The notes under the pieces: generated by a model
Databases searched by the model: none
The model's input: only the letters and a program-made list of their open reading frames with translations
What the model was told of the DNA's origin: nothing
Program-made: the position numbers and the translations under genes
Part shown: positions 779-11,857 of the stretch, in pieces
Position numbering within the stretch: the first letter of the stretch is position 1
Layout: every line of letters starts with the position of its first letter
Origin: a virus
Lineage: Duplodnaviria > Heunggongvirae > Uroviricota > Caudoviricetes
Strand: one strand, 5' to 3'
DNA length: 13,541 nucleotides
Virus record (IMG/VR): IMGVR_UViG_3300029498_000044

Positions 779-800
779 CAGACAGCAACTTTTCCTTTAA

Positions 801-1178
801 TTATTTCGAACAATCAGCATCCATCTCCAATCGGAGATCCAACACCATCAGCATGCCCTCCACTACGCCCTCAGCTTTCTGGAGCATCCTGCCAACCCAA
901 CAATCAGATCGCCCATGCTTACGTGCAAGCGCCATAAAAGTCATGCCGCCGACATAATAGTCCACCAATAAATCATGTAAATCGCTGTTGTTTTTTTTCA
1001 GGCGAGCCATACATTCACAAATGATCATCGCGTCATCGTCACAGCATTGCGGACGAGATCTTACTTTTGAAGGAATTAATCCCTTAAAACCGGCGGCAAT
1101 GGACGACCAGGTCACATCTTCATGATTATTAGCCGCCCATGCCCCCCAACGCTCAAGAACCATCTGAATATCACGCAT
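801..1178 (-). CDS. quuD: Late-gene antitermination protein Q (QuuD-type)
   Basis: Translation [24 protein letters not shown]...[10 protein letters not shown]...LRLEMD matches my recollection of DLP12 QuuD. Start moved from the track's TTG (1193) to ATG at 1178 with GGAG 7 nt upstream. Confidence 0.85.
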
Positions 1179-1195
1179 CAACTTACTCCACAAAA

Positions 1196-2245
1196 TTAGG
1201 CCAGCACACCAATTGCCAGCGCGCGATCGATAAATCGAAAAATCAGCTCCAGTTGGGAGCCATACTTCTCTTCAAATGCCACGGTATCCGTATGCAACTC
1301 GTCGTGATGCTTTCTGCACAAAGGCAACACAAAGAGATCATGTGCTTTGGTTCCCATTCCGCCCTGCCCGTGACCAATCAGATGATGCGGATCGTCGGCT
1401 GGCATACCGCAGCAAGCACACGGCTGTGTCTTAACCCAGCGTGTGTATTTCTCCTTAACCCAACGGTGACGTTTAGGCAGCTTCATGAAAGATTCCGGAG
1501 ACTCTGGATCAACGGTGATGCTTACCACCGTCTTTTCCTGTGATGGGTTTTGTTGCTGGTGGGCGTGAGGCAACGGTGCAAGATTTTTTGTGCGCTGTTT
1601 CAATATGCTGGTGGCGGTCTGCTCTCCCGGTACGATGTCGCTTTCGCGGTACACCGAGCAGTTTTTTTCCGCTGGTAATCCCAGCGAGCGACGTAATACC
1701 ACTTCCGGTAGCGCGTCCGCCACCTGATTGCGGACCGCCCACCAGGATAATTCAGCCAGAGATAATTCACGCTCCTGCGTACCGCTTATTGCGTGACCGA
1801 TGACGTCAATCATCCATGCTGACAGGTTTTGATGAGCAAGTTGCTCGAGTGATTCGGATGTCTGGTCACGCAGCTGGTTGTCGCAGTGCCAGCACAACAC
1901 CATTGCGCCGGTACCATAACGGTGAATGACGGTTTCACTGTGGTGATAATCGCCGTGTGGCCACTGGCAGGATTTAACATGGCGCAGTAACCAATCAGAC
2001 AATGCGCCAGCGCCACCAGCAGCACGAATCACTCGTTCGTCGCTGAAAAATGGCAGTAATGATTTATCCTCCGCCAGCGGCTGGCGAACGGCAGGAACGA
2101 CCCCGGACGGCAGATTACGCATGCTTTTCGGTTCCGGCTCCACCAGTACCCGGGTATTGTGGAATACCGGCATGGATTCACGGCCCGGCTTAACGATCAC
2201 CAGCCCGAGTTCCGGTACCAGAACAGGTCGAAGTAATACCCGCAC
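1196..2245 (-). CDS. ydfU: DUF968 / YdfU-like prophage protein with C-terminal Cys/His-rich (HNH-like) motif
   Basis: 349 aa, same length and position (adjacent to Q) as Qin YdfU. C-terminal motif CACCG...HH...CRKHH. GTG start with GGAGG SD, overlapping the stop of the upstream gene. Confidence 0.8.
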
Positions 2246-2246
2246 G

Positions 2247-2519
2247 TTACCTCCAGATGCGTTGCTGGAATGTGCGGGACGGACGCGGTGGGCGTTCGGA
2301 ATAAGGGAGTCTGACGTAGATTATCCAGTGACGATAATCGAGGGTGAGGGCTTTCCTAAACTCATATCCACGTCTGCGGTAGTTATGAATCAGCCATTCG
2401 GCCTGTTCTTCAGTACAGGGATCGTGCTGATACCAGTCATATTTGAATGCGTGAGAACGCCACCCGTGCCTGCTGGCAAAGGCAGAATCAGAATTGCGAA
2501 ATTTGAAATTATGCGCCAT
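2247..2519 (-). CDS. Hypothetical prophage protein (90 aa)
   Basis: ORF with GGAG SD 6 nt before ATG at 2519. Its stop abuts the ydfU start. No motif recognised. Confidence 0.5.
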   Translation of the reverse strand: MAHNFKFRNSDSAFASRHGWRSHAFKYDWYQHDPCTEEQAEWLIHNYRRRGYEFRKALTLDYRHWIIYVRLPYSERPPRPSRTFQQRIWR

Positions 2520-2578
2520 TGTCATCTCCAATGGCGCTGCAGGTTGCCAGTTGTTCAGGCTGGCTCACGTATTATAAC

Positions 2579-2752
2579 TTATTCCCGAACTACCTTGAAA
2601 CCGAGTCTTTCCAAGTATTCAATGAATGCCTCAACAGATAACACTACATGATCATCAGGAATTAACGCTGTGTAGGTAATACCCCCATTCTCAACGCGCA
2701 CAGCATAGAGGCCATCTTCACTAAAAATTTCACGTAATTCTTCGATTTTCAT
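2579..2752 (-). CDS. Hypothetical small protein (57 aa)
   Basis: ATG at 2752 preceded by GGAAGGA 8 nt upstream. Track ORF 2579..2800 trimmed to this start. Confidence 0.45.
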   Translation of the reverse strand: MKIEELREIFSEDGLYAVRVENGGITYTALIPDDHVVLSVEAFIEYLERLGFKVVRE

Positions 2753-2884
2753 CAACAGAATCCTTCCAGATAAATAGCACTCCCCCTGTTCGGGGTCCAT
2801 CCCTCTTCTCCCTGCGCGCTACTTAAGTATTTTTGATTCTATTCTGGCACCGTCCAAAACTTCAAACACGTTGAAAATAAAAAC

Positions 2885-2905
2885 AAAAAACCCGCCGAAG
2901 CGGGT
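2885..2905 (-). terminator. Rho-independent terminator ending the two-gene cassette
   Basis: Minus strand: stem ACCCGC/GCGGGT with TTCG loop, then a T-run. Lies immediately after the stop at 2910. Shares an identical 20-nt core with 4721-4740. Confidence 0.65.
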
Positions 2906-2909
2906 ATAC

Positions 2910-4016
2910 TCAAACAATCTGGAAAATATTTCTTGGATTTGTAATAGGTCTGTTGATGGAGAACAACTCACGAATTAAATCTTGGCTCAAGCCAGTTTTC
3001 ATAAGAATTCTTAGCCAGGTTGCATCATCCAGCATTTCAATCGCCTCGGCCAGCATGCCGGGTTCTTCAGGGCGCAAAAGTTCATCACCAGGTTCAACTC
3101 TCGTATACCCTCTGGAATTAAGATGCATATAGCCAGTTCTTGCCTGTTCCTGGGTCAATAAGCCTAATGCGCTGGCTCGATAAATACACATTTTAAGGCT
3201 GATTTTCCATCTAAGTTTAAATTCAACCAGAGCATTCCAGTCGAATTGCTTACCTCGTATTCGTGGAAATTCTTTAATGAAAGATAACCTGGGAACTAAT
3301 AAGGCGCTCGAAAAGTGATCGGCTTGTGATTCCGTAAGTTTATCACCTGTCGTTATGCCCTCATGCATTACTAAATGCCCTAATTCATGACCTAAATCAG
3401 AGCGAAATCTACATATGCTTTTTTTAACATTGTTCCTGATGATAACAGGCCTGTTATTGTGAACAGTAAAAGCATCAACACGATCATCGACTCCCGTAAC
3501 ATGCGCAACGATTACCCCTAAACTCTCCGCCAATTTAACCATTGATGATATAGGGCCAAGACCTAAATTCCAGGCACGGCGACAATCTTCTGCCACTCGC
3601 TCAATATCATTCGGAGTAAGTAATTCAGCCCCTGGGTGCTCCGGTATGTTAACGTCAGGAAATTCGATTTCACCTTCAACAGCAGAAATTATAATATTAA
3701 GAATCTCAGCCCTGGCCAATACACTATTAGTCAGCGTTTGAGTCCTGGACTTCTTACTCCGAAAATGGCAGACATCACTTTCCAGAGCGTATTTTCGTTC
3801 AGTAAAAAGAAAACTGGACTTAATCATAAGCGCTGAAGATATTAACTCAAGACATTGCTCCGATGGCCTGCACCCCTTCTCCAGTTTGCTAACGAATTGC
3901 TTTGTCTTGCCAATTTTTTCGGCTAACTCTTCACAAGAAAGCCCAACAGCCATTCTCGCTAGTTTGAGCTTATCACCCCGATACTCAGTGAAGTTATTCA
4001 CCTGATGTTCCATCAC
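2910..4016 (-). CDS. HTH_XRE DNA-binding domain fused to ImmA/IrrE-family (COG2856) Zn-metallopeptidase
   Basis: N-terminal XRE helix-turn-helix (about residues 12-68, LARMAVGLSCEELAEKIGKTKQFVSKLEKG). HEXXH motif H210-E-L-G-H214 at nt 3375-3389. First codon is GTG at 4016 or ATG at 4013. Overlaps the upstream gene by about 20 nt. Confidence 0.85.
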   Translation of the reverse strand: MMEHQVNNFTEYRGDKLKLARMAVGLSCEELAEKIGKTKQFVSKLEKGCRPSEQCLELISSALMIKSSFLFTERKYALESDVCHFRSKKSRTQTLTNSVLARAEILNIIISAVEGEIEFPDVNIPEHPGAELLTPNDIERVAEDCRRAWNLGLGPISSMVKLAESLGVIVAHVTGVDDRVDAFTVHNNRPVIIRNNVKKSICRFRSDLGHELGHLVMHEGITTGDKLTESQADHFSSALLVPRLSFIKEFPRIRGKQFDWNALVEFKLRWKISLKMCIYRASALGLLTQEQARTGYMHLNSRGYTRVEPGDELLRPEEPGMLAEAIEMLDDATWLRILMKTGLSQDLIRELFSINRPITNPRNIFQIV

Positions 4017-4644
4017 TGCTCACATCCAAATCTTTATCCTTCGTACGCCGACGAAGAGGCACCTTATTAATCTCCGCTTCGTCAGGGAGTGTGTTATAAT
4101 CAAGAGGCATAAGCGGCATCGATGCTGTAGATTGATGAGAAACTATACTAATCTGAGCACCATAAGTATTAAATCCAACAAGAGCTACCTCCCAACGAGG
4201 CAGTGTGGACTCTAATTCACCATCGCCCTCTTCGGATAAAAAAGGCTCAGCTATGACTCGCCATGTAATATCTTGCTCAGCCTCAACATCACCAAACAAT
4301 GAGAGCTGCTCATACTCTACTTTATTTCGACGCAGACGATGTTTCTTTTTGGGGTTATTAATGCAATCTTTGGTAAATTGTAGCGGAACTTTATTTAAAG
4401 CAACTACATAGTCCAACCCCTTGGAAATCATCTCAAGGCCAGGAATTGCATCTTCATTTTGAATAAGATGATTTCTGACCCAATCATAAGCCCTTACACC
4501 TTCAGACCAGTTGCTGTCTAATGCGTGCTTATGATAGTACAGCTGCTCAAGTACGTTAGCGATCTCCGCCAACAAGTGGCGAACATAGTTTTCAGCAAGA
4601 TAAGGTTGAAATTCCCAACAAGGAGCTAACTGATTTTCATTCAT
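3994..4644 (-). CDS. Hypothetical 216-aa protein, operon partner of the HTH-peptidase; candidate effector or toxin
   Basis: Long ORF with no motif I recognise. Contains a basic patch KKKHRLRRNK. Its 3' end overlaps the downstream peptidase gene. Weak SD. Confidence 0.7.
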   Translation of the reverse strand: MNENQLAPCWEFQPYLAENYVRHLLAEIANVLEQLYYHKHALDSNWSEGVRAYDWVRNHLIQNEDAIPGLEMISKGLDYVVALNKVPLQFTKDCINNPKKKHRLRRNKVEYEQLSLFGDVEAEQDITWRVIAEPFLSEEGDGELESTLPRWEVALVGFNTYGAQISIVSHQSTASMPLMPLDYNTLPDEAEINKVPLRRRTKDKDLDVSSDGTSGE

Positions 4645-4679
4645 TTCAAGTTTCGCTTTTTTTAGAATTCGTAAACCAC

Positions 4680-4708
4680 ATATTTTCGCATTTTTCTATT
4701 TTTGTCAA
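4680..4708 (-). promoter_or_regulatory. Candidate cassette-specific promoter
   Basis: Perfect minus-strand -35 TTGACA (4703-4708). The -10 is weak (AAATAT or AAAATA at 16-18 nt spacing). Sits between the upstream terminator and the cassette start. Confidence 0.3.
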
Positions 4709-4720
4709 CCAGACTAATGC

Positions 4721-4740
4721 AAAAACCCGCCGAAGCGGGT
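4721..4740 (-). terminator. Rho-independent terminator at the 3' end of the hok transcript
   Basis: Same ACCCGC-TTCG-GCGGGT hairpin plus T-run as 2885-2905, about 70 nt past the hok stop. Confidence 0.6.
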
Positions 4741-4809
4741 TAAGTGCGGGTGCGTTGAGGATGCCTGGCACATCAGAGGTGGCGGGAGATTACTCCCCCG
4801 CCGGGTCTC

Positions 4810-4965
4810 TTACTCCTCAGGTTCGTAAGCTGTGAAGACAGCGACCTCCGTCTGGCCGGTTCGGATTCGTACCTCGCAGAGGTCTTTCCTCGTTACCAGT
4901 GCCGTCACAATGACGGTTAAACAGATGACGATCAGGGCGATTAGCATCGCCTTTTGCTGCTTCAT
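4810..4965 (-). CDS. hokD: Hok-family type I toxin (small membrane peptide, 51 aa)
   Basis: MKQQKAMLIALIVICLTVIVTALVTRKDLCEVRIRTGQTEVAVFTAYEPEE is a canonical Hok/Gef sequence and matches my memory of HokD/RelF. Track ORF 4810..5022 carries a 19-codon upstream extension at the mok-like position. Confidence 0.85.
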   Translation of the reverse strand: MKQQKAMLIALIVICLTVIVTALVTRKDLCEVRIRTGQTEVAVFTAYEPEE

Positions 4966-5169
4966 AGCCTGCTTCTCCTTGCCTTTCGGCACGTAAGAGG
5001 CTAACCTACGTGTGTAGAGCATAGATATGGCCTCAGATTAATGTTAAGCGTCTTGCCGGACGCGTAATGTTAACTGGGGCTTTTCTCTATCTGCCTTTTG
5101 GTGTTCATGCCTGAGACAGATAGCCTCAAGCACCCGCTGCAATTCTACTTAACTCTCCTTTTCCCGCAA
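4966..5169 (-). promoter_or_regulatory. hok promoter and long 5' leader with mok-like start and Sok target
   Basis: Minus-strand TTGCGG (5164-5169), 16-nt spacer, TAGAAT (5142-5147). Leader contains GCTTGAGGCTATCTG...CAGATAG complementary boxes. In-frame upstream ATG at 5022. Confidence 0.5.
5014..5090 (+). ncRNA. Candidate Sok-like antisense RNA (approximate coordinates)
   Basis: Plus-strand TTGCCT (4979-4984), 17-nt spacer, TAACCT (5002-5007) would start a transcript antisense to the mok start and SD. The 3' end is not resolved. Confidence 0.3.
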
Positions 5170-5176
5170 ACCGTTT

Positions 5177-5260
5177 TTATCCCCAGCGGCAAATCGAATA
5201 CACCACCAGCGCCACCGCCATCGCAATTCCTACCGTTGTTAATGCTTCAGGCCAGGTCAT
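5177..5260 (-). CDS. Candidate 27-aa hydrophobic peptide ([27 protein letters not shown])
   Basis: ATG overlaps the TGA of the upstream gene (ATGA). GGAGGA lies 9-10 nt upstream. Single predicted transmembrane helix. Not in the ORF track because it is under 60 aa. Confidence 0.3.
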
Positions 5261-5601
5261 CGTAAAATATCCTCCACGCTTATCAGTCCGTTCCGCTCCA
5301 GATAACTCATCGCCTTATCCGGTAATTTGCAGTCTGGCTTCGCTTTCCTCAGTTGCCAGGTTAACTGCTTTACCAGCATGGTTAACTCATCGACCAGACG
5401 CTGATATCCCACTGGTTTGTATTCATGCAATTTACCGGCTGGCTCTGCTGCCAGCGATACCAGTGCGATTTCCAGAACAGCAATATCCATCTTATATGTG
5501 CGGATGATGTCATGGTCGATTGTGCCCGGTATGCACAGTCTCTGTGCTTCAATAGTCTCCTCTGCGTGAGCTATTAACTGCTCTCTGGTAAAAGTCGTCA
5601 T
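5257..5601 (-). CDS. Hypothetical prophage protein (114 aa), paralogous to the next gene upstream
   Basis: ATGA-coupled to the 55-aa ORF. N-terminus MTTFTREQ and segment [11 protein letters not shown] resemble MTTITKER and [11 protein letters not shown] of the neighbour. Confidence 0.6.
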
Positions 5602-5765
5602 GCCGTAGCCCCTTCTTGATATTTTTCAAACCAGAACACAACCGGCTCTGCTTCCAGCGATGCCAGCGCAATCCGTGCCAGTTCCATTTGTTCACCACGG
5701 GTAAGCCCGTTTTCAAGCGGGTTTTTAATGAACAATTCAATACGTTCTTTGGTAATAGTGGTCAT
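5598..5765 (-). CDS. Hypothetical small protein (55 aa), paralog of the 114-aa neighbour
   Basis: Unlisted ORF. AAGGAG 7 nt before ATG at 5765. Stop overlaps the downstream start (ATGA). Confidence 0.6.
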
Positions 5766-5775
5766 GTGTTACTCC

Positions 5776-6039
5776 TTAACCCGCAGTGCTTTCAACTGAT
5801 GAGGGGAACAAAATCTTTTCATCAAACCCTGCATTCATATCATGGACAGCAACACACCAATCCATTGACGAACGATTATCAAGAGCCTCCATGATTTCAT
5901 CCATGCGGCGCAGGTCATACAGGTAAATGCTTTTATCGCCAATGGTGTAAAAACCAATTTTTTTCGGTGATGGACAGCGATCAAGAACGTCCTGTAATTC
6001 GTTCAACCATGCCTGTTCTTTTTTTGTCAAAGTTGCCAT
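5776..6039 (-). CDS. Hypothetical prophage protein (87 aa)
   Basis: Start taken at internal ATG 6039 with AAGGAAA SD, just after the stop of the upstream gene. Track ORF extends to 6129. Confidence 0.55.
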   Translation of the reverse strand: MATLTKKEQAWLNELQDVLDRCPSPKKIGFYTIGDKSIYLYDLRRMDEIMEALDNRSSMDWCVAVHDMNAGFDEKILFPSSVESTAG

Positions 6040-6040
6040 A

Positions 6041-6259
6041 TCAGTTTTCCTTATACGGATTAATTTTATTGTGCAGTGTGTTGAACGGAGCCCATACCAC
6101 GTCGTTATACAATTCAATAACTGGCTCAATTATTTTTCCGATTCCCCATACCAGAATTAACGGGGATATCGGTATCATCAACACGATAAACAGAATGAGA
6201 AACAAAAATTCTGTCGCTCTACTTTTTCGCGGATATTCTTTTCTGAATAATGTAGGCAC
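6041..6259 (-). CDS. Small membrane protein (72 aa, one predicted TM helix)
   Basis: Hydrophobic stretch FLFLILFIVLMIPISPLILVWGIG. GTG start with GGAGAG SD, overlapping the upstream stop. Confidence 0.55.
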   Translation of the reverse strand: MPTLFRKEYPRKSRATEFLFLILFIVLMIPISPLILVWGIGKIIEPVIELYNDVVWAPFNTLHNKINPYKEN

Positions 6260-6260
6260 A

Positions 6261-6476
6261 TCACTCTCCTTTGTTGCTCCTCAAAATTTTATGCCCTGGC
6301 GCAAAAGCACGCGTTTTGTCGGCACTTATTCGCCACCCATCTTTACGTGCCTCTTTTGCACAGCCAGCCCATGACGTACCGATATACTCACCAAAATCTG
6401 GCGACTGATATTTGCCATCCGTACACTGGCGGCAATCACAATAGAGATGCATGGTATAACTTGCGGCAATACCCAT
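6261..6476 (-). CDS. Small Cys-rich protein (71 aa)
   Basis: C-x-C-x2-C cluster (YCDCRQC) plus a further Cys. ATG immediately follows the upstream TGA. Confidence 0.5.
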   Translation of the reverse strand: MGIAASYTMHLYCDCRQCTDGKYQSPDFGEYIGTSWAGCAKEARKDGWRISADKTRAFAPGHKILRSNKGE

Positions 6477-6836
6477 TCAGCCTCCTTTGATGCCCGTGTT
6501 TACAACCAGGCAGGCCTCCTTGAGTACCCAGTCAATAGCGTCTTTCCATGCTCCGGTTTCAACTGGCGGATCCTCACGCCGCACCTGTTCATAAAAGCGC
6601 ACAGCTTTAACCAGTCCTTCTGATGTCACCGAAGCTGGCGGGGCCGTGAATAACGCCTGAATTTCATAGTTTGGTCTGTCGTTACAATCCTCTTTTGTCG
6701 GGACATATTTCCAGTCACCAACCCACTGCTTCCCCTGAAAGTCTGTAACGCCTTTTTTCACGTAGCGATATCGCCATGCCACTGGTTTTGCCTGCCCTAC
6801 CTTTTCATGCCCTTCCTGATAATTAATCTCGCTCAT
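6477..6836 (-). CDS. Hypothetical prophage protein (119 aa)
   Basis: ORF with ATGA overlap to the upstream 58-aa ORF. Confidence 0.6.
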   Translation of the reverse strand: MSEINYQEGHEKVGQAKPVAWRYRYVKKGVTDFQGKQWVGDWKYVPTKEDCNDRPNYEIQALFTAPPASVTSEGLVKAVRFYEQVRREDPPVETGAWKDAIDWVLKEACLVVNTGIKGG

Positions 6837-7009
6837 TCATCGCCCCACTCATCACAATATGCTTCGACCGGTGTTTTCCCTGCTTCATAATCATCACGCC
6901 ATGCTTCAGCATCAGCGGCACTTCCACCGCGTAACTCTGCATAATCCATTAACAGTTCATGCCATTCTTCAAAACTGGCGTTATATTTAGTTGAACCAAA
7001 ATCAGCCAT
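6833..7009 (-). CDS. Hypothetical acidic small protein (58 aa)
   Basis: Unlisted ORF MADFGSTKYNASFEEWHELLMDYAELRGGSAADAEAWRDDYEAGKTPVEAYCDEWGDE. GAGGAAG SD. Fills the gap between two annotated genes with overlaps at both ends. Confidence 0.5.
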   Translation of the reverse strand: MADFGSTKYNASFEEWHELLMDYAELRGGSAADAEAWRDDYEAGKTPVEAYCDEWGDE

Positions 7010-7184
7010 TTTGTTCTTCCTCTTCGTCTTTTATTTCGTGGTATGAGTAATTGCAGTAGTTAAAGAAAATACCTTTAGCTTCATCCTGTATTTCATCTGG
7101 TGTTGCATCATCATCCACTTCGAATTCATCCTCGAAATCTCCACCGGCTATTCCCGTTTCAATAATTATTTTGAATTTTCGCAT
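7002..7184 (-). CDS. Hypothetical acidic small protein (60 aa)
   Basis: Track ORF, Asp/Glu-rich. A GAAA-tetraloop hairpin sits between an AGGAGG and the ATG. Confidence 0.5.
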   Translation of the reverse strand: MRKFKIIIETGIAGGDFEDEFEVDDDATPDEIQDEAKGIFFNYCNYSYHEIKDEEEEQNG

Positions 7185-7336
7185 TTCACTACCGCCCTTT
7201 CGGACGGCCTCCTGATGTTCTGAGGGTGCAGAAATCCCTCCGGTTAAGGATTTGATTTTATTTACAGTGCTAAATTTAATTATTCAGTTCTGGATTTTGT
7301 CGCCCTGCATATCCGCGCTTTCGCGTTACGCTCAAT

Positions 7337-7636
7337 CTAAATTAACTTTTCTATATTTTTCCGCCTTTCCTGTTCCTCCTGGCGCAATAGCCTTACATCA
7401 TCTGCCAGTCTGGTTTCTCTTTTCGCCACAGAGAGCATCCAGTCAAACGGCTCCACAACTGCACCGCAGATTTTACAGCGGACCTGACGCTCTTTTTCGT
7501 CAACCCGAACAGAGGCGTGATGACAATATGGTCTTTCCGATGGCTCATAAAGAAAATTAACCTGATTACGAGGGTCATCCTCTTTTACCGGAAATAAAAC
7601 GATATTGCTTAACTCATCCTCTGGTTTTATTTCCAT
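7337..7636 (-). CDS. Zinc-ribbon-like small protein (99 aa)
   Basis: CHH...x13...CKIC spacing. Strong SD AGGAGAGGAG. Overlaps the upstream gene by 23 nt. Confidence 0.55.
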   Translation of the reverse strand: MEIKPEDELSNIVLFPVKEDDPRNQVNFLYEPSERPYCHHASVRVDEKERQVRCKICGAVVEPFDWMLSVAKRETRLADDVRLLRQEEQERRKNIEKLI

Positions 7637-8075
7637 GCTCCTCTCCTTTGATGCGAATGCCAGCGACGCGTAATGCGTGTTCTAAGTCAATCAGGTAAAG
7701 CCAACTGCCATTTTCTTTAGGTATCATGACATGTCGCTCATCTGCATTTATCGGGTGTCCATATCGAAGGTCGTAGCGAGTCGGTAATTGAACTTCCCGC
7801 GCTTCCAGTTCAGCAATACGCTTGCTCCCATCAGAGATAACGCCTTCGTAATACTCACGCTGCTCGTTGAGTTGTGATTTTGCTTCTTCCAGTCCATCCA
7901 GCAAATCAGCGATAATATCCGCTTCCCGATGACGGATGTGACGCTTAAACGCAGCAAGAGCCGCATCACAATCCCGTTCAGCATTTGGGCTGTCCGGGAT
8001 AGCCTGATACCACGCCAGCGTCGACTGATAGTTTTGTGCTGCCTCACGAAGCGCCTCATAGTTAACCTCTCTCAT
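7614..8075 (-). CDS. Hypothetical prophage protein (153 aa)
   Basis: Start set at ATG 8075, which overlaps the TGA of the DUF4406 gene (ATGA), with AGGAGGTGG SD. Track ORF extends to 8207. Confidence 0.6.
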   Translation of the reverse strand: MREVNYEALREAAQNYQSTLAWYQAIPDSPNAERDCDAALAAFKRHIRHREADIIADLLDGLEEAKSQLNEQREYYEGVISDGSKRIAELEAREVQLPTRYDLRYGHPINADERHVMIPKENGSWLYLIDLEHALRVAGIRIKGEEHGNKTRG

Positions 8076-8368
8076 TGAGCCACCTCCTGATAAATCACTG
8101 CATGCCCCAGTTTCTCCGCCAGTGCCAGCTCTGCCTTGGCGCCCGCTGACCGCTGCCAGCCATTCAGCATGTAAATCGCATCCACACAACGAATCATTGC
8201 CATGCAAATATCCATGTAGTGCGGCTGTGTCAGCCCGTCCGGAAGTACTGCCGGGTTTAAGACGGTATGCCCTTCCCGTTTCAGTTCCTCTTCCGCCTTG
8301 TGAAACGCCTCACGGTTGAAATTTTCATATCCCGTCATTGGACCGGCAATATAAACTCTGACCCTCAC
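8072..8368 (-). CDS. DUF4406-family protein (nucleoside 2-deoxyribosyltransferase-like fold), 98 aa
   Basis: Motifs VYIAGPMTG, GHTVLNP, MLNGWQRSAGAKAE. GTG start overlaps the upstream TGA (GTGA) with AGGAGG SD. Confidence 0.75.
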   Translation of the reverse strand: MRVRVYIAGPMTGYENFNREAFHKAEEELKREGHTVLNPAVLPDGLTQPHYMDICMAMIRCVDAIYMLNGWQRSAGAKAELALAEKLGHAVIYQEVAQ

Positions 8369-8757
8369 TCCATCACCTCCTGAAAGTTTCCCCGATAGAA
8401 CGCCAGCACACGCTGCATAACTTCGCTCTGGCGGCACTCACGACAAATTATGTTCTGCCGTCTGTTGTAACGACGTATTTCTCCGTCAGGTAACTTTCGA
8501 ATCAGTGTCGGGTCAGCAGCCTTCTCCGGTGTCTTACGCCATACGCGATACGCCTGCTCTGATGGAAATACCCCGCAACCAGAGAGCCAGACATCACCAC
8601 TGGCCGCAAGCGCACCAGATAAACGACGAATAGCGGTCTTACTGACACCCGTTTTATCTGCCAGTTGTCGAAAAGTTTCTCGTCCGCTCAGGCGCACGAA
8701 TTCCACAATGCGCGCCTTCACTTCTTCCCGCTCTTCTGGTGTAAATACTTTTGCCAT
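8365..8757 (-). CDS. Putative HTH-containing prophage protein (130 aa)
   Basis: HTH-like segment FRQLADKTGVSKTAIRRL. ATG at 8757 with GGAGG SD. CxxC near the C-terminus. Confidence 0.6.
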   Translation of the reverse strand: MAKVFTPEEREEVKARIVEFVRLSGRETFRQLADKTGVSKTAIRRLSGALAASGDVWLSGCGVFPSEQAYRVWRKTPEKAADPTLIRKLPDGEIRRYNRRQNIICRECRQSEVMQRVLAFYRGNFQEVME

Positions 8758-8772
8758 AAGCGCCTCCGGCAA

Positions 8773-9543
8773 TCACTTTTCCGATACAACACGGCGGGAA
8801 GAATCAGTAATCTGTCGAACAATATCCCGGTGCTTGTTCACCTCCCGCAGCGCGGCGCAGACTCGCTCCCACTTCTGAACATCACTTTTCGCCCTGCGCA
8901 GCGCCAGGTTTGCCCTGCGAAGGGACGGAAAAATCAGCTCATCTGCTTGCGTTTCGGTAAACGATGGCAACGGCTGCACAATGTCCGCCACAGTTTCTGT
9001 TTTAATTTCTTCCTGTGTTGCGGCTTCCCGGACTGGTAACGCAGCACCTGCTGGCTGAGGAAAGGCCTTACCATCACTTTCCGTTACCAGCGCGGCTTTC
9101 GGCTCTGCTGGTAAATTATCGCCCGGCATGCAGTAACGAAATTTACCGTTCTGATTAACGCGTGCCAGCCGCCCCGTTGCGGTTACCACCGCCAGCGTGG
9201 AGGCAACCTTGCGAGTACTGACGCCGAACTTACCCGCCAGTTCCTCACACGTTTTAGCACCATCCTGACCGATAAACTCAATCATCATGTCTGCGGTAAC
9301 TTTTTGTTCGACCTCCCCGGTCAGCATATCCTGTGCTTCAGATTTTACTGGCCGCTCTTCGGTTACCCGGGATTCACCTTCGCCAGCCAGAAACCAGGTG
9401 TGACCAGTTTTATCAACGACGCCATTTCTTTTGAGTTCCCACAGCTCGTTGAGAACCTCTTCACGACTGATATCAAGTCGCGCGGCCAGTTCTACCGATG
9501 TGGCTTTTCCCATTGCTTTCAGTGCGTCAAATACGGTTTCCAT
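8773..9543 (-). CDS. Prophage protein with two tandem winged-helix-like modules (256 aa)
   Basis: Two repeats of a wHTH-like pattern ([28 protein letters not shown] and [28 protein letters not shown]). ATG at 9543 with GGAGG SD. Track start at 9561 is TTG. Confidence 0.65.
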
Positions 9544-9576
9544 TAAAATTTCCTCCGACAAAATCGTTTCTCAGAT

Positions 9577-10242
9577 TCAAATAAAACCAGCTGCCTTCCG
9601 GCGTTCGTATTCCTGTTTCAGCCGTTCAATTGGCGTTGGCCCTTGCGGGTGTTTAGCCCCTTCCAGTTGTCGTCGCACTGGCGGAACACTCATCCCGTTA
9701 CCAACATGCTTTGCCCATTTCGTCAGTTGCCGTTCCGCAAGTCGTTTTAACTCACCCTGCGTCATCTGGCGCTCAATCCCTCTGGTACGCATTTCGAGGC
9801 AGATGTGGTACAGCACAGGCTGAGGCCACGGATATTTGTCGCTTCCGTCATATCGCCAGGACTCATCACGCCAGCGGCGGTACTCCTCCATCACAGCATC
9901 CACCGTCAGGCCAAATGGATTGGCCCCGCTTTCTGAAATCAGCGCCACAAACTCAGCCAGGTCCGGAGGCCATGTTTCACCCGCCCGGCAGCGGTCCATG
10001 CACTGGCGGCAGACCTGTCGGATTTGCTGCTCAGTCATCGCGCCAATCTGTGCAATCCAGAGCTTCGAAGGTGCGGCCCCGTTCTTCTGGGTCCAGCGGT
10101 TCGAATAAACCTCCCCCATGAGTTCCCACAGCTTCCAGACCGTTTCCGTCGCTGATAAATCCGTTTTCACGTTCCCACTGCTCACGTGCTGCCCGAATTT
10201 CCTGAACTGCCCGTGATGCGGTGCCACCTGGTGCTGCTGCAT
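9577..10242 (-). CDS. Lambda P-like replication protein (DnaB helicase loader)
   Basis: Aligns from memory with lambda P (PPDLAEFVALI, YPWPQPVLYHICLEMR). ATG at 10242 with strong GGGGGT SD. Overlaps the 3' end of the O-like ORF by 212 nt in another frame. Confidence 0.8.
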   Translation of the reverse strand: MQQHQVAPHHGQFRKFGQHVSSGNVKTDLSATETVWKLWELMGEVYSNRWTQKNGAAPSKLWIAQIGAMTEQQIRQVCRQCMDRCRAGETWPPDLAEFVALISESGANPFGLTVDAVMEEYRRWRDESWRYDGSDKYPWPQPVLYHICLEMRTRGIERQMTQGELKRLAERQLTKWAKHVGNGMSVPPVRRQLEGAKHPQGPTPIERLKQEYERRKAAGFI

Positions 10243-11071
10243 GGTTTACCCCCTTGCTGACTGGCTTAACCTGCGCCCTGACGTGATTTACGTGACGGGC
10301 GAATTTCTGCTCCCACTGAACCTGCGTGAAAACTTTCCCCTCCGCTGCCCAGTAGTCCCGGAAAGCGGCAAGTTCAGCAGGTGTAAATTCCGGCTCCGGC
10401 AAAGCCATCCCCCACAACGCAGCCCGTCGTCGAAAATCCGGCGACGGATGCCAGTCATCGACCATCGGAAATTTCCCGATGGGTTCGCTCAGTCCATCCA
10501 GGGATGCAGGTTCTGCTGCCTGCAACGGCGTACCACTCGACTCACTGGTCGGAGCACTCTCGCGCACGTGCGCGTTATGTGTGGGGTTTAATTCTTTATC
10601 TGTATCTTTATCTGTCGTGACTCGTCGTGACATGTCGTGACATATGCGTGACTCGTCGTGACACCCCTCATTCTGTTTTCGTAATTTTTCCCTCTCGCGC
10701 TGCGCTCTCTTGCGCTCTGCCGGGGATTTCGCGGTTTGTGAAACGTTGCCATTGTCCTCTTTCAGGACCTGGCGTTTTTCCCATCCGGTGATTAAATCTC
10801 CATCAAGTACCCGCCCCTGCATTGCCTGTAAAATTGAATCAATTACTTCTTCCGTCACATCAAGCGCACTTGCTAAATCTTCCGTCGTGACATCAATGTG
10901 ACCACGTAGTGACACGCCGTGACATGTCGTGACATTTCGTGACGCGCTCACCAGAAGGTGGATATACACTGCCATCACTGTTGCAATTGGCTGCCCTGAC
11001 ACCCTGGCAATTGTTCGCCACTTAGGGTCATTTGGCATGTCATGCCATAATCTGAGCCAGGCGTTAGCCAT
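10031..11071 (-). CDS. O-like replication initiator (DUF1376 / YdaU-like N-terminus)
   Basis: N-terminus MANAWLRLWHDMPNDPKWRTIARV. Two iteron arrays lie inside the ORF. ATG at 11071 with GAGGTG SD (GTG at 11077 also possible). Confidence 0.75.
   Translation of the reverse strand: MANAWLRLWHDMPNDPKWRTIARVSGQPIATVMAVYIHLLVSASRNVTTCHGVSLRGHIDVTTEDLASALDVTEEVIDSILQAMQGRVLDGDLITGWEKRQVLKEDNGNVSQTAKSPAERKRAQREREKLRKQNEGCHDESRICHDMSRRVTTDKDTDKELNPTHNAHVRESAPTSESSGTPLQAAEPASLDGLSEPIGKFPMVDDWHPSPDFRRRAALWGMALPEPEFTPAELAAFRDYWAAEGKVFTQVQWEQKFARHVNHVRAQVKPVSKGVNHAAAPGGTASRAVQEIRAAREQWERENGFISDGNGLEAVGTHGGGLFEPLDPEERGRTFEALDCTDWRDD
10614..10662. repeat. Iteron array 1: five copies of GTCGTGAC (one variant)
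   Basis: Copies at 10614-21, 10624-31, 10634-41, 10647-53 (GCGTGAC), 10655-62. Spacing 9-12 bp. Preceded by an AT-rich CTTTATCTGT x2 stretch. Confidence 0.6.
10884..10943. repeat. Iteron array 2: six copies of nnCGTGAC
   Basis: Copies end at 10891, 10902, 10913, 10923, 10933, 10943, spaced 10-11 bp (about one helical turn). Confidence 0.6.
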
Positions 11072-11142
11072 ACTCACCTCTTCTGATACCGAATCTTTTT
11101 ACTCACAAATTGCCGGAAGTGATCCGGTATGAATATTGCGAG

Positions 11143-11568
11143 TCAATGCACAGCCACAATATTTCCTGCAGGGCCACCACGATTCATCTGGTTGAAACCA
11201 GCGATCGCCACTGCGACAAAATCATCAGCGTCTCTCACCAGTCGTTCCCGCGTCTCCACCAGCTCCCGAAAATAAGCTGAACTGTGGCTGCGCATTCGGG
11301 CCACCAGCAGAGGCGGCATTGCTTTTTCGATCGCTGGTAACAACGCCTGAATTTTTTTAACCGCATCAGGAGTGTCTTTCTCCACCCAGCGGAAAATTTT
11401 CTGGGTATTGCGAGCCAGGGCTTCCGGATGGCTGTCGTCATATAATTCCGGGAACGTCATACCAAGCTCAAAATAAGCCCGGGTTATTTCAGCTGCCGGA
11501 ACTTTTTCACCGTCCGGATGCGCCCAGGCATTCATCGCCATGCGGATGTGCTCATGCCTGATTTTCAT
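11143..11568 (-). CDS. ydaT: YdaT-like regulator (cII functional analog of Rac-type prophages)
   Basis: 141 aa, MKIRHEHI...IVAVH. N- and C-terminal signature and length match Rac YdaT from memory. Sits between the cro-like and O-like genes. Confidence 0.75.
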   Translation of the reverse strand: MKIRHEHIRMAMNAWAHPDGEKVPAAEITRAYFELGMTFPELYDDSHPEALARNTQKIFRWVEKDTPDAVKKIQALLPAIEKAMPPLLVARMRSHSSAYFRELVETRERLVRDADDFVAVAIAGFNQMNRGGPAGNIVAVH

Positions 11569-11827
11569 GAATCAACTCCGATGCATTTGGTGTGTTAGCC
11601 TTGAATCCAACAGGTAAGCCGTCGGTTGGATTCGGGTAAATATCAGGCCGGAGTTCATGAGGTGTAACCTCGAAATTCGTTACTTCAGCAACACGTAATG
11701 CTTTTTCAGGGCTGAATCTTTCATAGCCCCCCAGCACTCGACTTACATGCACCTGAGATAAACCCGTTAGCTTCCCAAACTGTAGCTGGGTGATATGTTT
11801 CTCTTTTAAATAGTCTCTTAAGTTCAT
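11552..11827 (-). CDS. Cro/YdaS-like HTH regulator
   Basis: HTH segment ITQLQFGKLTGLSQVHVSRVL, followed by an ELRPDIYP motif. ATG at 11827 with GAAGG SD (track start at 11833 is TTG). Divergent from the repressor. Confidence 0.75.
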   Translation of the reverse strand: MNLRDYLKEKHITQLQFGKLTGLSQVHVSRVLGGYERFSPEKALRVAEVTNFEVTPHELRPDIYPNPTDGLPVGFKANTPNASELIHENQA

Positions 11828-11857
11828 AGCCAACCTTCTACGTTATGCCTCGAGCAA

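What the first reader, a model, noticed from the sequence alone, without database searches (positions are those of the whole stretch)
4781..5169. Complete hok/mok/sok-type type I toxin-antitoxin locus adjacent to the cassette
A canonical 51-aa Hok toxin is preceded by a long leader with complementary boxes reminiscent of the hok mRNA 5' fold-back elements, a mok-like upstream start at 5022, a plausible hok promoter (TTGCGG-16-TAGAAT) and a plausible antisense promoter on the plus strand (TTGCCT-17-TAACCT). A 3' hairpin at 4781-4802 follows the stop. Together with the neighbouring cassette this makes a small defence/addiction islet. Unlike K-12 Qin, no relBE is present.
Basis: partly seen in the sequence, partly recalled or inferred. 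Interest (0 to 1): 0.5.

Follow-up and report, generated by a model that had tools for sequence, protein, structure and literature searches.

The report
Intact prophage hok/mok/sok toxin-antitoxin locus
This is an ordinary, fully intact copy of the long-known hok/mok/sok RNA-controlled killer module, carried by a lambdoid prophage of E. coli.

Summary
The finding is real and correctly interpreted. The minus strand of window 4721-5169 carries a complete hokD-type hok/mok/sok type I toxin-antitoxin locus.

- **Toxin:** the 51-aa Hok matches Pfam HOK_GEF (E=2.9e-23) and is identical to K-12 HokD.
- **Leader:** it matches Rfam RF01794 over the full model (117 bits, gathering score 59, E=1e-26).
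- **mRNA fold:** the 414-nt mRNA folds with z=-6.4. Its minimum-energy structure contains the 5'-3' tac/fbi clamp and the pairing that hides the mok ribosome-binding site.
- **Conservation:** these helices are kept, with compensatory changes, in 50 diverse relatives.
- **Antitoxin:** the predicted 71-nt Sok is identical to SokW of phage 933W/Sp5 in its promoter and hairpin. SokW is experimentally validated. The two differ only in the 5' recognition tail.

Two corrections apply.
- The 4781-4802 hairpin is the internal exonuclease road-block, not the 3' end.
- The neighbouring cassette is a RosmerTA defence pair. It follows hok in only 4 of 132 related loci from other contigs, so it is a neighbour, not a partner.

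Nothing here is new in kind. The one mildly interesting side observation is that the Sok recognition region is hypervariable among otherwise near-identical loci.

The parts
5164..5169 (-). hok promoter -35 (TTGCGG)
   Evidence: Read from the sequence. The -35, spacer and -10 are identical to the region upstream of hokW in 933W; a single difference lies between the -10 and +1. Not called by the generic sigma-70 scan. Function is inferred by homology.
5142..5147 (-). hok promoter -10 (TAGAAT), 16-nt spacer, 6 nt before +1
   Evidence: The Rfam model and all homologues start at G5135.
4721..5135 (-). Primary hok mRNA (about 415 nt; +1 inferred at G5135, 3' end in the terminator T-run)
   Evidence: Fold of the 414-nt RNA: MFE -167.2 kcal/mol, z=-6.44. 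On 50 relatives, 88% of cells are paired, against 36-46% for slid controls, and 38 pairs carry changes on both sides.
5124..5135 (-). tac (translational activator element), GGGUGCUUGAGG, mRNA nt 1-12
   Evidence: Pairs with fbi in the MFE structure. The duplex is -19.8 kcal/mol and 12 bp. Across 98 unique loci the mean is -19.8, against -9.0 for a shuffled fbi. Pair U4-A changes to C4-G in 11 of 50 sequences.
5107..5117 (-). Partner of tac in the nascent-transcript (metastable) hairpin, nt 19-29
   Evidence: The first 35 nt fold as nt 3-13 paired with nt 19-29, -16.9 kcal/mol. This matches the metastable structure described for R1 (PMC9841398).
5074..5080 (-). ucb / anti-SD box GCCCCAG, nt 56-62
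   Evidence: Pairs with the mok SD in the full-length MFE structure. That helix is 93% paired in 50 relatives (helix 5). It can instead pair with tac, and that pairing is 100% kept in 50 relatives (helix 1).
5031..5034 (-). mok Shine-Dalgarno GAGG, nt 102-105, 8 nt before the mok AUG
   Evidence: G102, A103, G104 and G105 are invariant in 50 relatives.
4810..5022 (-). mok reading frame (70 codons, in frame with hok, same stop codon)
   Evidence: The layout is the same as annotated mokW and mokC. Residues 2-5 differ between loci, so the frame is conserved rather than the peptide.
4997..5034 (-). Sok-target hairpin of the refolded mRNA (mok SD paired with dcb GCCUC at 4997-5001; loop carries the first mok codons)
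   Evidence: Folds alone at -13.2 kcal/mol, z=-2.8. The SD/dcb helix is 100% paired in 50 relatives, and the upper stem has 5 pairs with changes on both sides. It appears in the MFE of the first 145 nt and in the Rfam consensus.
4975..4979 (-). hok Shine-Dalgarno AGGAG
   Evidence: The surrounding CAAGGAG is conserved across relatives.
4810..4965 (-). hok toxin gene (51 aa, plus stop)
   Evidence: Pfam PF01848, E=2.9e-23. Identical to K-12 HokD and 47 of 51 residues identical to HokW. Annotated as hokD in the identical genome NZ_CP042903.
4781..4802 (-). Road-block hairpin that would define and protect the 3' end of the processed, active mRNA
   Evidence: -18.8 kcal/mol. Helix 17 is 97.6% paired with 5 compensatory pairs. 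It starts at mRNA nt 334, as in the R1-type locus. Its role is taken from R1 studies (PMC1635323; PMC9841398).
4748..4760 (-). fbi (fold-back inhibitory element) CCUCAACGCACCC
Evidence: Retained in K-12 hokD and in 933W.
4721..4741 (-). Intrinsic terminator (7-bp stem, UUCG loop, five T)
Evidence: Homology among hokD-type loci ends immediately after the T-run.
4979..5007 (+). sok promoter: -35 TTGCCT (4979-4984), 17-nt spacer, -10 TAACCT (5002-5007)
   Evidence: Both hexamers and the spacer are identical to those of sokW in 933W. In that locus, mutations around the -10 element abolished antitoxin activity (PMC8621323). The key positions are invariant in 50 relatives. Not called by the generic scan.
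5014..5084 (+). Sok antisense RNA (predicted 71 nt), complementary to hok mRNA nt 52-122 (ucb, mok SD, mok AUG)
   Evidence: The ends are transferred from the 933W sokW annotation. The RNA folds as a 15-nt single-stranded 5' tail, a long hairpin and UUU, at -28.6 kcal/mol, z=-5.4. It has 6 differences from SokW, all within nt 3-16. No expression data exist.

Best explanation
Window 4721-5169 is an intact hokD-type hok/mok/sok type I toxin-antitoxin module carried as accessory cargo in the nin region of a lambdoid (Qin/Rac-like) E. coli prophage. I expect it to work as described for plasmid R1 hok/sok and phage 933W/Sp5 hokW-sokW.

1. The minus strand gives a stable hok mRNA of about 415 nt. 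Its 5' end (tac) pairs with a box near its 3' end (fbi). In this closed form the mok ribosome-binding site is paired with the upstream ucb box. The RNA is then neither translated nor bound by Sok. While the RNA is still being made, tac is held in a local hairpin.
2. Slow 3' exonucleolytic trimming removes the terminator and fbi and stops at the 4802-4781 hairpin. The freed tac can then pair with ucb. The mok SD moves into the target hairpin (SD/dcb).
3. The plus strand gives a short-lived 71-nt Sok RNA. Its single-stranded 5' tail recognises the target loop. The full duplex covers the mok SD and AUG, blocks mok translation and so blocks the coupled hok translation. The duplex is cleaved by RNase III.
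4. When Sok synthesis stops, Sok decays. Mok and Hok are translated from the stored processed mRNA, and Hok (51 aa, one transmembrane helix) depolarises the inner membrane.

The most likely physiological trigger in this context is prophage induction, with Hok helping lysis and phage release, as shown for hokW-sokW. Prophage retention and exclusion of other phages remain possible additional roles.

Shown here: the sequence, the structure and the conservation of all elements.
Inferred: transcription starts and ends, RNA processing, Sok instability, toxicity in this host, and the physiological role.
For: - **Family signals:** Rfam RF01794 matches over the full model at 117.1 bits. K-12 hokC scores 118.3 and an R1-type locus 87.2 with the same model. 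Pfam HOK_GEF gives 2.9e-23.
- **Full-length fold:** z=-6.44. The MFE structure contains both tac/fbi and ucb/SD-mok.
- **Effect of fbi:** forcing fbi unpaired costs 10 kcal/mol. The open form is disfavoured by 14.2 kcal/mol in the full-length RNA but by only 6.2 kcal/mol after trimming.
- **Conservation in 50 relatives from Escherichia, Kluyvera, Citrobacter, Photorhabdus, Pantoea and Erwinia:**
  - The full-length structure is 88% paired, against 36-46% for slid controls, with 38 pairs changed on both sides.
  - tac/fbi is 93.5% paired, with U-A changed to C-G in 11 sequences.
  - The alternative tac/ucb and SD/dcb helices are 100% paired.
  - The tac/fbi duplex averages -19.8 kcal/mol over 98 loci and 20 haplotypes, against -9.0 for a shuffled fbi.
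- **No decay:** the window departs from a consensus of 80% or more at only one of 388 positions, and that position lies inside the road-block hairpin, which still forms.
- **Sok:** the sok promoter hexamers and spacer are identical to those of experimentally validated sokW, and so is nt 17-71 of the RNA.
- **Experiments on hokW-sokW (PMC8621323):** it is a type I TA system. Sok is lost on RecA-dependent induction, HokW reaches the inner membrane, and deleting the locus halves phage yield.
- **R1 mechanism and element definitions:** PMC9841398 and PMC1635323.
Against: - There are no expression data for this locus.
- Neither promoter passes a generic sigma-70 consensus scan.
- ViennaRNA does not put the trimmed RNA into the open form as its MFE. 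The same calculation also fails for the R1-type control, where the switch is experimentally established, so this test is uninformative rather than negative.
- The predicted target loop of this haplotype (CUCUACACA) contains no YUNR U-turn motif, whereas 933W and hokC have CUGA. This is my own reading.
- Chromosomal hok loci with all elements present were reported not to give post-segregational killing (summary in bioRxiv 10.1101/2025.08.07.668861).
- HokD has Tyr at the position where other Hok toxins carry a Cys needed for a disulfide bond. Only about 6% of K-12 hokD mRNA is edited to Cys (PMC12214031).
Confidence: 0.85

Rival explanations
1. The locus is structurally intact but physiologically silent. 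It is transcribed and regulated like any hok/sok locus, but at single copy it never reaches killing levels. It would then be a passenger with no selectable effect.
For: Chromosomal hokA, hokB and hokC loci were reported not to mediate post-segregational killing or rifampicin activation (cited). Both promoters match the consensus weakly. Editing of the Tyr47 codon is low in K-12 hokD.
Against: The single-copy prophage locus hokW-sokW has measurable effects on lysis timing, viability and phage yield. All regulatory boxes are kept under visible constraint. Hok genes are about four-fold enriched in prophages.
Confidence: 0.2
2. The main role is defence or addiction rather than help with lysis. Either loss of Sok when an infecting phage shuts off host transcription causes abortive infection, or Hok kills cells that lose the prophage.
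For: R1 hok/sok on a high-copy plasmid reduces T4 plating (cited). The 933W annotation calls the locus 'prophage maintenance'. A proven defence cassette type, RosmerTA, lies next door.
Against: No enrichment of hok near defence systems was found in a large survey. The only direct experiment on a prophage hok/sok points to a role that favours the phage. RosmerTA is adjacent in only 4 of 132 related loci from other contigs.
Confidence: 0.3
3. The locus is a decayed remnant, like K-12 hokD and the IS-disrupted hokA, hokC and hokE.
For: K-12 and many E. coli genomes carry truncated hokD copies whose homology starts only at the hok SD.
Against: Here the whole leader is present and scores as high as K-12 hokC with the Rfam model. 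The ORFs are open. No insertion sequence is present. Only one position departs from the family consensus. The same haplotype is the commonest among 117 related loci.
Confidence: 0.03
4. hok/sok and the downstream RmrT/RmrA pair form one co-regulated defence/addiction unit.
For: The two are adjacent on the same strand, with 76 bp between the hok terminator T-run and the rmrT start.
Against: A terminator separates them. Homology between hokD-type loci ends at that terminator, and many different sequences follow it. RmrT follows hok in 4 of 132 related loci from other contigs.
Confidence: 0.05

Closest known systems
hokW/mokW/sokW of Stx2 phage 933W and Sakai prophage 5
   Same: 92.5% nucleotide identity from the upstream flank through fbi. 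The hok and sok promoter hexamers are identical. The Sok hairpin and tail end are identical. The in-frame mok layout is the same, and Hok is 47/51 identical. Both lie in a lambdoid prophage.
   Different: There are six substitutions in the first 16 nt of Sok, so the recognition tail and target loop differ. 933W diverges right after fbi and lacks the terminator hairpin seen here. The position in the prophage differs: nin region here, a leftward block next to attR in 933W. The C-terminal four variable residues of Hok also differ.
hokD (relF) of cryptic prophage Qin, E. coli K-12
   Same: The Hok protein is identical. The hok SD, road-block hairpin, fbi and terminator are the same. Both sit in the same general prophage family (ydfA/B/C, DUF968 and Q genes nearby).
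   Different: K-12 has relBE fused directly upstream. It lacks the promoter, tac, ucb, mok start, target hairpin and Sok, and gives no RF01794 hit. The window carries the un-rearranged form.
hokC/mokC/sokC (gef) of E. coli K-12
   Same: The architecture is the same, with an in-frame mok. The offset of the Sok 5' end from the mok ATG is the same (8 nt). The Rfam score is similar.
   Different: hokC lacks the roughly 18-nt insertion that lengthens the Sok hairpin (sokC is 59 nt against 71 nt here). Hok is about 82% identical. K-12 hokC has IS186 just downstream.
hok/mok/sok (parB) of plasmid R1
   Same: All named elements are present in the same order and at nearly the same spacing: the road-block hairpin starts at nt 334 in both. 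The Rfam family and the Pfam family are the same.
   Different: Hok is about 45% identical. mok is in a different frame from hok in the R1-type sequence (read). Sok is 64 nt with an 11-nt tail. The R1 locus is plasmid-borne, with proven post-segregational killing.

Membership tests
[quoted passage not shown] | Small Hok/Gef toxin (about 50 aa, N-terminal transmembrane helix, conserved periplasmic part) | tested here: met
   PF01848, E=2.9e-23, covering 42 of 42 profile positions. Identical to K-12 HokD. The NCBIfam Hok models match below their strict cut-offs.
[quoted passage not shown] | hok mRNA leader matching the family's sequence and structure model | tested here: met
   RF01794 at 117.1 bits (gathering score 59), model positions 1-157 of 157, at 5135-4960 on the minus strand. 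Controls: hokC 118.3, 933W 113.5, R1-type 87.2, K-12 hokD no hit.
[quoted passage not shown] | Long-range tac/fbi pairing of the mRNA 5' and 3' ends | tested here: met
   12 bp, -19.8 kcal/mol, and part of the MFE structure. Kept in 98 loci and 20 haplotypes, with compensatory changes.
[quoted passage not shown] | mok SD sequestered by an upstream complementary box in the full-length RNA | tested here: met
   GCCCCAG (nt 56-62) pairs with CUGAGGC (nt 100-106) in the MFE structure. The helix is 93% paired in 50 relatives.
[quoted passage not shown] | Refolding after 3' trimming to tac/ucb plus the SD/dcb target hairpin | tested here: inconclusive
   Both alternative helices exist and are 100% conserved. 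The isolated leader folds this way. Trimming lowers the cost of the open form from 14.2 to 6.2 kcal/mol, but the MFE structure stays closed. The same holds for the R1-type control.
[quoted passage not shown] | Overlapping mok reading frame with its own SD, required for hok translation | tested here: met
   The ORF is 5022-4810, with GAGG 8 nt upstream. The layout is the same as annotated mokW and mokC. Translational coupling itself is not testable here.
[quoted passage not shown] | Convergent cis-antisense Sok gene covering the mok initiation region, with a single-stranded 5' tail, a stem-loop and a U-tail | tested here: met
   Promoter at 4979-5007 and RNA at 5014-5084. The fold has a 15-nt tail, a hairpin and UUU, z=-5.4. 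The promoter hexamers, spacer and hairpin are identical to those of validated sokW.
[quoted passage not shown] | 3' stem-loop that halts exonucleolytic trimming | tested here: met
   Hairpin at 4802-4781, -18.8 kcal/mol. It is 97.6% paired with 5 compensatory pairs.
[quoted passage not shown] | YUNR U-turn in the target loop, which speeds Sok binding | tested here: inconclusive
   The predicted loop CUCUACACA has no YUNR motif, whereas 933W and hokC have CUGA. I could not verify from held papers which loop residues form the U-turn in R1. This haplotype is the commonest in the sample.
[quoted passage not shown] | Unstable Sok, stable hok mRNA, RNase III cleavage, killing when Sok is lost | not testable with these tools
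   Known for R1 and in part for hokW-sokW. No data exist for this allele.
RosmerTA defence system (the neighbouring cassette, not part of the finding) | Two genes: toxin RmrT plus antitoxin RmrA with HTH and Zn-peptidase (M78) domains | tested here: met
   3994-4644 matches PADLOC RmrT at 4.6e-25. 2910-4016 matches RmrA at 6.2e-105 and carries HTH_3 and Peptidase_M78. The system is described in bioRxiv 10.1101/2022.05.11.491447.

The most novel reading that the evidence does not exclude
The first 16 or so nucleotides of Sok, together with the matching target loop and first mok codons (window 5008-5029), may act as a rapidly diversifying 'address label'. This label would keep the many hok/sok copies that co-reside in one E. 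coli genome from neutralising each other.

Evidence so far:
- Among 60 unique loci that encode the identical Hok protein, this 22-nt stretch has a mean column entropy of 0.75 bit, against 0.09 elsewhere. Nucleotides 111-132 fall into 16 haplotypes.
- Sok here and SokW differ only in this stretch.
- Leader-bearing copies from the same genome or sample carried different labels in 5 of 6 cases examined.

A second, untested idea concerns the trigger. Here hok is co-oriented with the early rightward operon. In 933W it is co-oriented with the PL operon once the prophage has circularised. Antiterminated read-through at induction could therefore silence the convergent sok promoter. That would explain the unexplained loss of Sok after induction reported in PMC8621323.
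Probability: 0.35. Interest if true: 0.4.

Novelty: already known. Interest (0 to 1): 0.12.

Why it matters
It matters little for discovery. It is a textbook module, and a near-identical copy has already been annotated and tested.

It has three modest uses:
- **Reference for hokD:** it shows what the un-rearranged form of K-12's truncated hokD looks like, with every regulatory box mapped to the base.
- **Annotation gap:** RefSeq annotates only the hokD CDS in the identical genome, not mok or sok.
- **Test material:** it offers a natural set of Sok 'address' variants for testing cross-talk between co-resident type I systems.

Tried and rejected
- **RNAduplex on long flanks** (110 nt upstream against 125 nt downstream) gave long, non-specific duplexes no better than shuffles. 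An earlier version timed out. I replaced it with 13-nt against 15-nt duplexes.
- **First family alignment (A2)** was flawed because my extraction pattern cut one C off the Photorhabdus fbi. I redid it as A3. Even in A3, the lower half of tac/fbi is shifted by one column in sequences without the 1-nt bulge. Part of the 'not paired' counts at columns 7-10 are therefore alignment artefacts. Direct duplex folding shows 11-13 bp in those loci.
- **Generic promoter scan** called neither promoter. Its one hit (5047-5018) is at chance level.
- **MFE folding of the trimmed mRNA** did not give the open conformation. I judged this uninformative because it also fails on the R1-type control.
- **Decayed-remnant reading** was rejected (see rivals).
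- **Functional unit with RosmerTA** was rejected.
- hokA, hokB and hokE of K-12 were not aligned individually.
Full report
**Setting**

The window is part of a lambdoid prophage of E. coli. Positions 4700-5260 are 100% identical to the chromosome of E. coli CFSAN061761. There the region lies between the replication and nin-type genes and DUF968-RusA-Q, with ydfA/B/C and a cI/YdaS/YdaT immunity region upstream. All these genes, and the finding, are on the window's minus strand.

**Check of the observation**

- The 51-aa ORF is at 4810-4965. The in-frame ATG at 5022 gives a 70-aa ORF.
- TTGCGG, a 16-nt spacer and TAGAAT lie at 5169-5142. TTGCCT, a 17-nt spacer and TAACCT lie on the plus strand at 4979-5007.
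- A 9-bp hairpin lies at 4802-4781.
- No relBE is present.

The signals are far above chance.
- Rfam RF01794 scores 117.1 bits (gathering score 59, E=1.1e-26) over the whole model.
- Pfam HOK_GEF gives E=2.9e-23.
- The whole-mRNA fold has z=-6.44.

One oddity is worth recording. The Rfam family named 'sok' matches the hok-mRNA strand and ends at the hok AUG. The same happens at K-12 hokC, where sokC is annotated on the other strand. The model therefore describes the hok leader, and the true Sok is antisense to its middle part.

**Anatomy**

Numbering the mRNA from G5135 (position p = 5136 minus the window coordinate), the boxes defined for plasmid R1 (PMC9841398; PMC1635323) map as follows.

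| Element | mRNA nt | Window |
|---|---|---|
| tac | 1-12 | 5135-5124 |
| Local partner of tac (nascent-transcript hairpin) | 19-29 | 5117-5107 |
| ucb / anti-SD (GCCCCAG) | 56-62 | 5080-5074 |
| mok SD (GAGG) | 102-105 | 5034-5031 |
| mok AUG | 114 | 5022 |
| dcb (GCCUC) | 135-139 | 5001-4997 |
| hok SD | 157-161 | 4979-4975 |
| hok AUG | 171 | 4965 |
| Stop codon | 324-326 | 4812-4810 |
| Road-block hairpin | 334-355 | 4802-4781 |
| fbi (CCUCAACGCACCC) | 376-388 | 4760-4748 |
| Terminator stem; T-run to 4721 | — | 4741-4724 |

It therefore omits fbi and the terminator, without which the locus would not be complete.

The 3' boundary is confirmed independently. Related hokD-type loci stay alike through GCGGGTTTTT and then diverge into many different sequences.

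**Structure of the mRNA**

The 414-nt RNA has an MFE of -167.2 kcal/mol. That structure closes the molecule with tac/fbi and pairs ucb with the mok SD. Keeping fbi unpaired costs 10 kcal/mol.

The nascent RNA behaves as the R1 model predicts.
- The first 35 nt form the tac hairpin (-16.9 kcal/mol).
- The first 60-145 nt fold into tac/ucb plus the target hairpin, which is the Rfam consensus structure.

Enforcing this open form costs 14.2 kcal/mol in the full-length RNA and 6.2 kcal/mol in an RNA trimmed to 4776. Trimming therefore favours the switch. The MFE structure nevertheless stays closed, and the same is true of an R1-type control locus where the switch is experimentally established. I treat this test as uninformative.

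**Conservation of the structure**

I collected 133 related loci from bacterial genomes and viral contigs. I aligned 50 representatives that differ by more than 2.5%, drawn from Escherichia, Kluyvera, Citrobacter, Photorhabdus, Pantoea and Erwinia.

- The full-length structure has 88% of cells paired, against 36-46% when partners are slid by 1-3 columns. It has 38 pairs with changes on both sides, against 9-23 for the slid versions. No shuffle reaches the observed covariation score.
- That structure was derived from the window itself, which favours it over the slid versions.
- tac/fbi is 93.5% paired. U4-A is replaced by C4-G in 11 sequences.
- Folded directly, tac/fbi gives a mean of -19.8 kcal/mol over 98 unique loci and 20 haplotypes, against -9.0 for a shuffled fbi.
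- The alternative tac/ucb and SD/dcb helices are 100% paired and almost invariant. This is expected for boxes that must fit two partners.
- The window departs from a consensus of 80% or more at one position only, inside the road-block hairpin, which still forms. I found no disrupting mutation.

**Sok**

Transferring the 933W annotation places Sok at 5014-5084, starting 7 nt after TAACCT. It folds into a 15-nt free 5' tail, a long hairpin and UUU (-28.6 kcal/mol, z=-5.4).

Compared with SokW, the promoter hexamers and spacer are identical and nt 17-71 are identical. All six differences lie in nt 3-16. The offset of the Sok start from the mok ATG (8 nt) equals that of sokC and mokC in K-12.

The generic sigma-70 scan calls neither promoter. 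Their support is therefore homology with loci where they were shown to work. For sokW, mutating the -10 region abolished antitoxin activity.

**Comparison with known loci**

- **hokW/mokW/sokW of 933W/Sp5:** 92.5% identical from the flank to fbi. It is a proven type I system. Sok disappears on RecA-dependent induction, HokW enters the inner membrane, and deleting the locus delays growth arrest and halves phage release (PMC8621323).
- **K-12 hokD:** it encodes the identical protein and keeps the hok SD, hairpin, fbi and terminator. Everything upstream is replaced by relE, and the Rfam model finds nothing there. The window is thus the un-rearranged form of hokD.
- **hokC/mokC/sokC:** it has the same plan but lacks an insertion of about 18 nt in the Sok hairpin.
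- **R1-type locus:** it has all the boxes at nearly the same spacing. Its Hok is only about 45% identical, and its mok is out of frame with hok.

Matches to the region occur in 4947 of 5426 complete E. coli genomes, with a median of 2 and up to 11 per genome. They also occur in 147 phage records and 1685 plasmids. A recent survey found hok about four-fold enriched in prophages but not enriched near defence systems.

**Mechanism and role**

I commit to the canonical mechanism given under the best explanation. Sequence, structure and conservation are shown here. Transcript ends, processing, Sok instability and toxicity are inferred.

For the physiological role, the only direct evidence on a prophage copy points to help with lysis at induction. 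Phage exclusion and prophage retention remain possible. Complete silence cannot be excluded, because chromosomal loci failed in post-segregational killing tests.

**The neighbouring cassette**

ORFs 3994-4644 and 2910-4016 match RmrT (4.6e-25) and RmrA (6.2e-105; HTH plus M78 peptidase). Together these make up the RosmerTA defence system.

However, a terminator separates the two, and RmrT follows hok in only 4 of 132 related loci from other contigs. I read this as two independent cargo modules in the same prophage hot spot.

**Side observations**

- **Hypervariable Sok tail.** The Sok tail and target loop (window 5008-5029) are hypervariable. Entropy is 0.75 bit against 0.09 elsewhere among 60 loci with identical Hok. 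That set was selected on protein identity, which lowers coding-region variation, but the rest of the leader is also quiet. Co-resident copies mostly carry different variants.
- **Editing motif.** TACGAA at Tyr47 is invariant in all 50 relatives. This is the TadA editing context that recodes Tyr to Cys in hok mRNAs.
- **Small upstream ORF.** A conserved 27-aa hydrophobic ORF ends 8 nt before the hok -35.

**Verdict**

The locus is already known in kind and nearly in sequence, so interest is low.

Noticed in passing
window 2910-4644 (-): The two ORFs directly downstream of hok form a RosmerTA anti-phage cassette. RmrT is 216 aa (PADLOC 4.6e-25). RmrA is 368 aa (PADLOC 6.2e-105; HTH_3 plus Peptidase_M78). 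RefSeq labels them only as 'hypothetical' and 'helix-turn-helix domain-containing'. RmrT follows hok in only 4 of 132 related loci from other contigs.
   Followed up: partly
window 5008-5029 (both strands): The Sok 5' tail, target loop and mok codons 1-5 are hypervariable among otherwise near-identical hokD-type loci. Mean entropy is 0.75 bit against 0.09 elsewhere. Nucleotides 111-132 fall into 16 haplotypes. Copies from the same genome or sample differ in 5 of 6 cases. This may be a specificity label that prevents cross-talk.
   Followed up: partly
window 5177-5260 (-): An unannotated 27-aa hydrophobic ORF ([27 protein letters not shown]). Its ATG overlaps the stop of the upstream 114-aa ORF (ATGA), and it ends 8 nt before the hok -35. 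About 30 related loci have a recognisable homologue, most with an intact frame and amino-acid substitutions. It has no family match.
   Followed up: partly
window 4822-4827 (-): TACGAA, containing the Tyr47 codon of hok, is invariant in 50 diverse hok loci. It is the TadA A-to-I editing context that recodes Tyr to Cys. K-12 hokD mRNA is reported to be 6% edited (PMC12214031).
   Followed up: partly
window 4960-5135 (-); L004 902-1054: The Rfam family RF01794, named 'sok antitoxin', matches the hok-mRNA sense strand (the whole 5' leader up to the hok AUG), not the Sok strand. This also holds at K-12 hokC, where sokC is annotated on the opposite strand. Strand calls from this family should not be read as the antitoxin gene.
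   Followed up: yes
L001 about 2010-2075 (933W) against window 4700-4747: In 933W, homology with the window ends right after fbi, and the terminator hairpin present here and in K-12 hokD is missing. How the hokW transcript ends is unclear.
   Followed up: no
window 800-11833 (-); L139 and L140 (933W): hok is co-oriented with the prophage early rightward operon here. In 933W it sits in a leftward block next to attR, which would lie downstream of the PL operon after excision. Sense read-through at induction could interfere with the convergent sok promoter. This is speculative.
   Followed up: no
L020, L025, hit H26: Hok sequences 96-100% identical at the protein level to this E. coli locus turn up on contigs of 275 bp and 431 bp in assemblies labelled Acinetobacter idrijaensis and Xanthomonas pisi. 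In addition, an 'Actinobacillus phage' record matches 96.9% at the DNA level over 540 bases. The two tiny contigs look like contamination.
   Followed up: no
window 5018-5047 (-): This is the only sigma-70-like site called by the consensus scan in 4600-5300 (TTAACA, 18-nt spacer, TATGCT). It lies inside the hok leader and overlaps the mok start. One site was found against 0.5 expected from shuffles, so it is probably chance.
   Followed up: no
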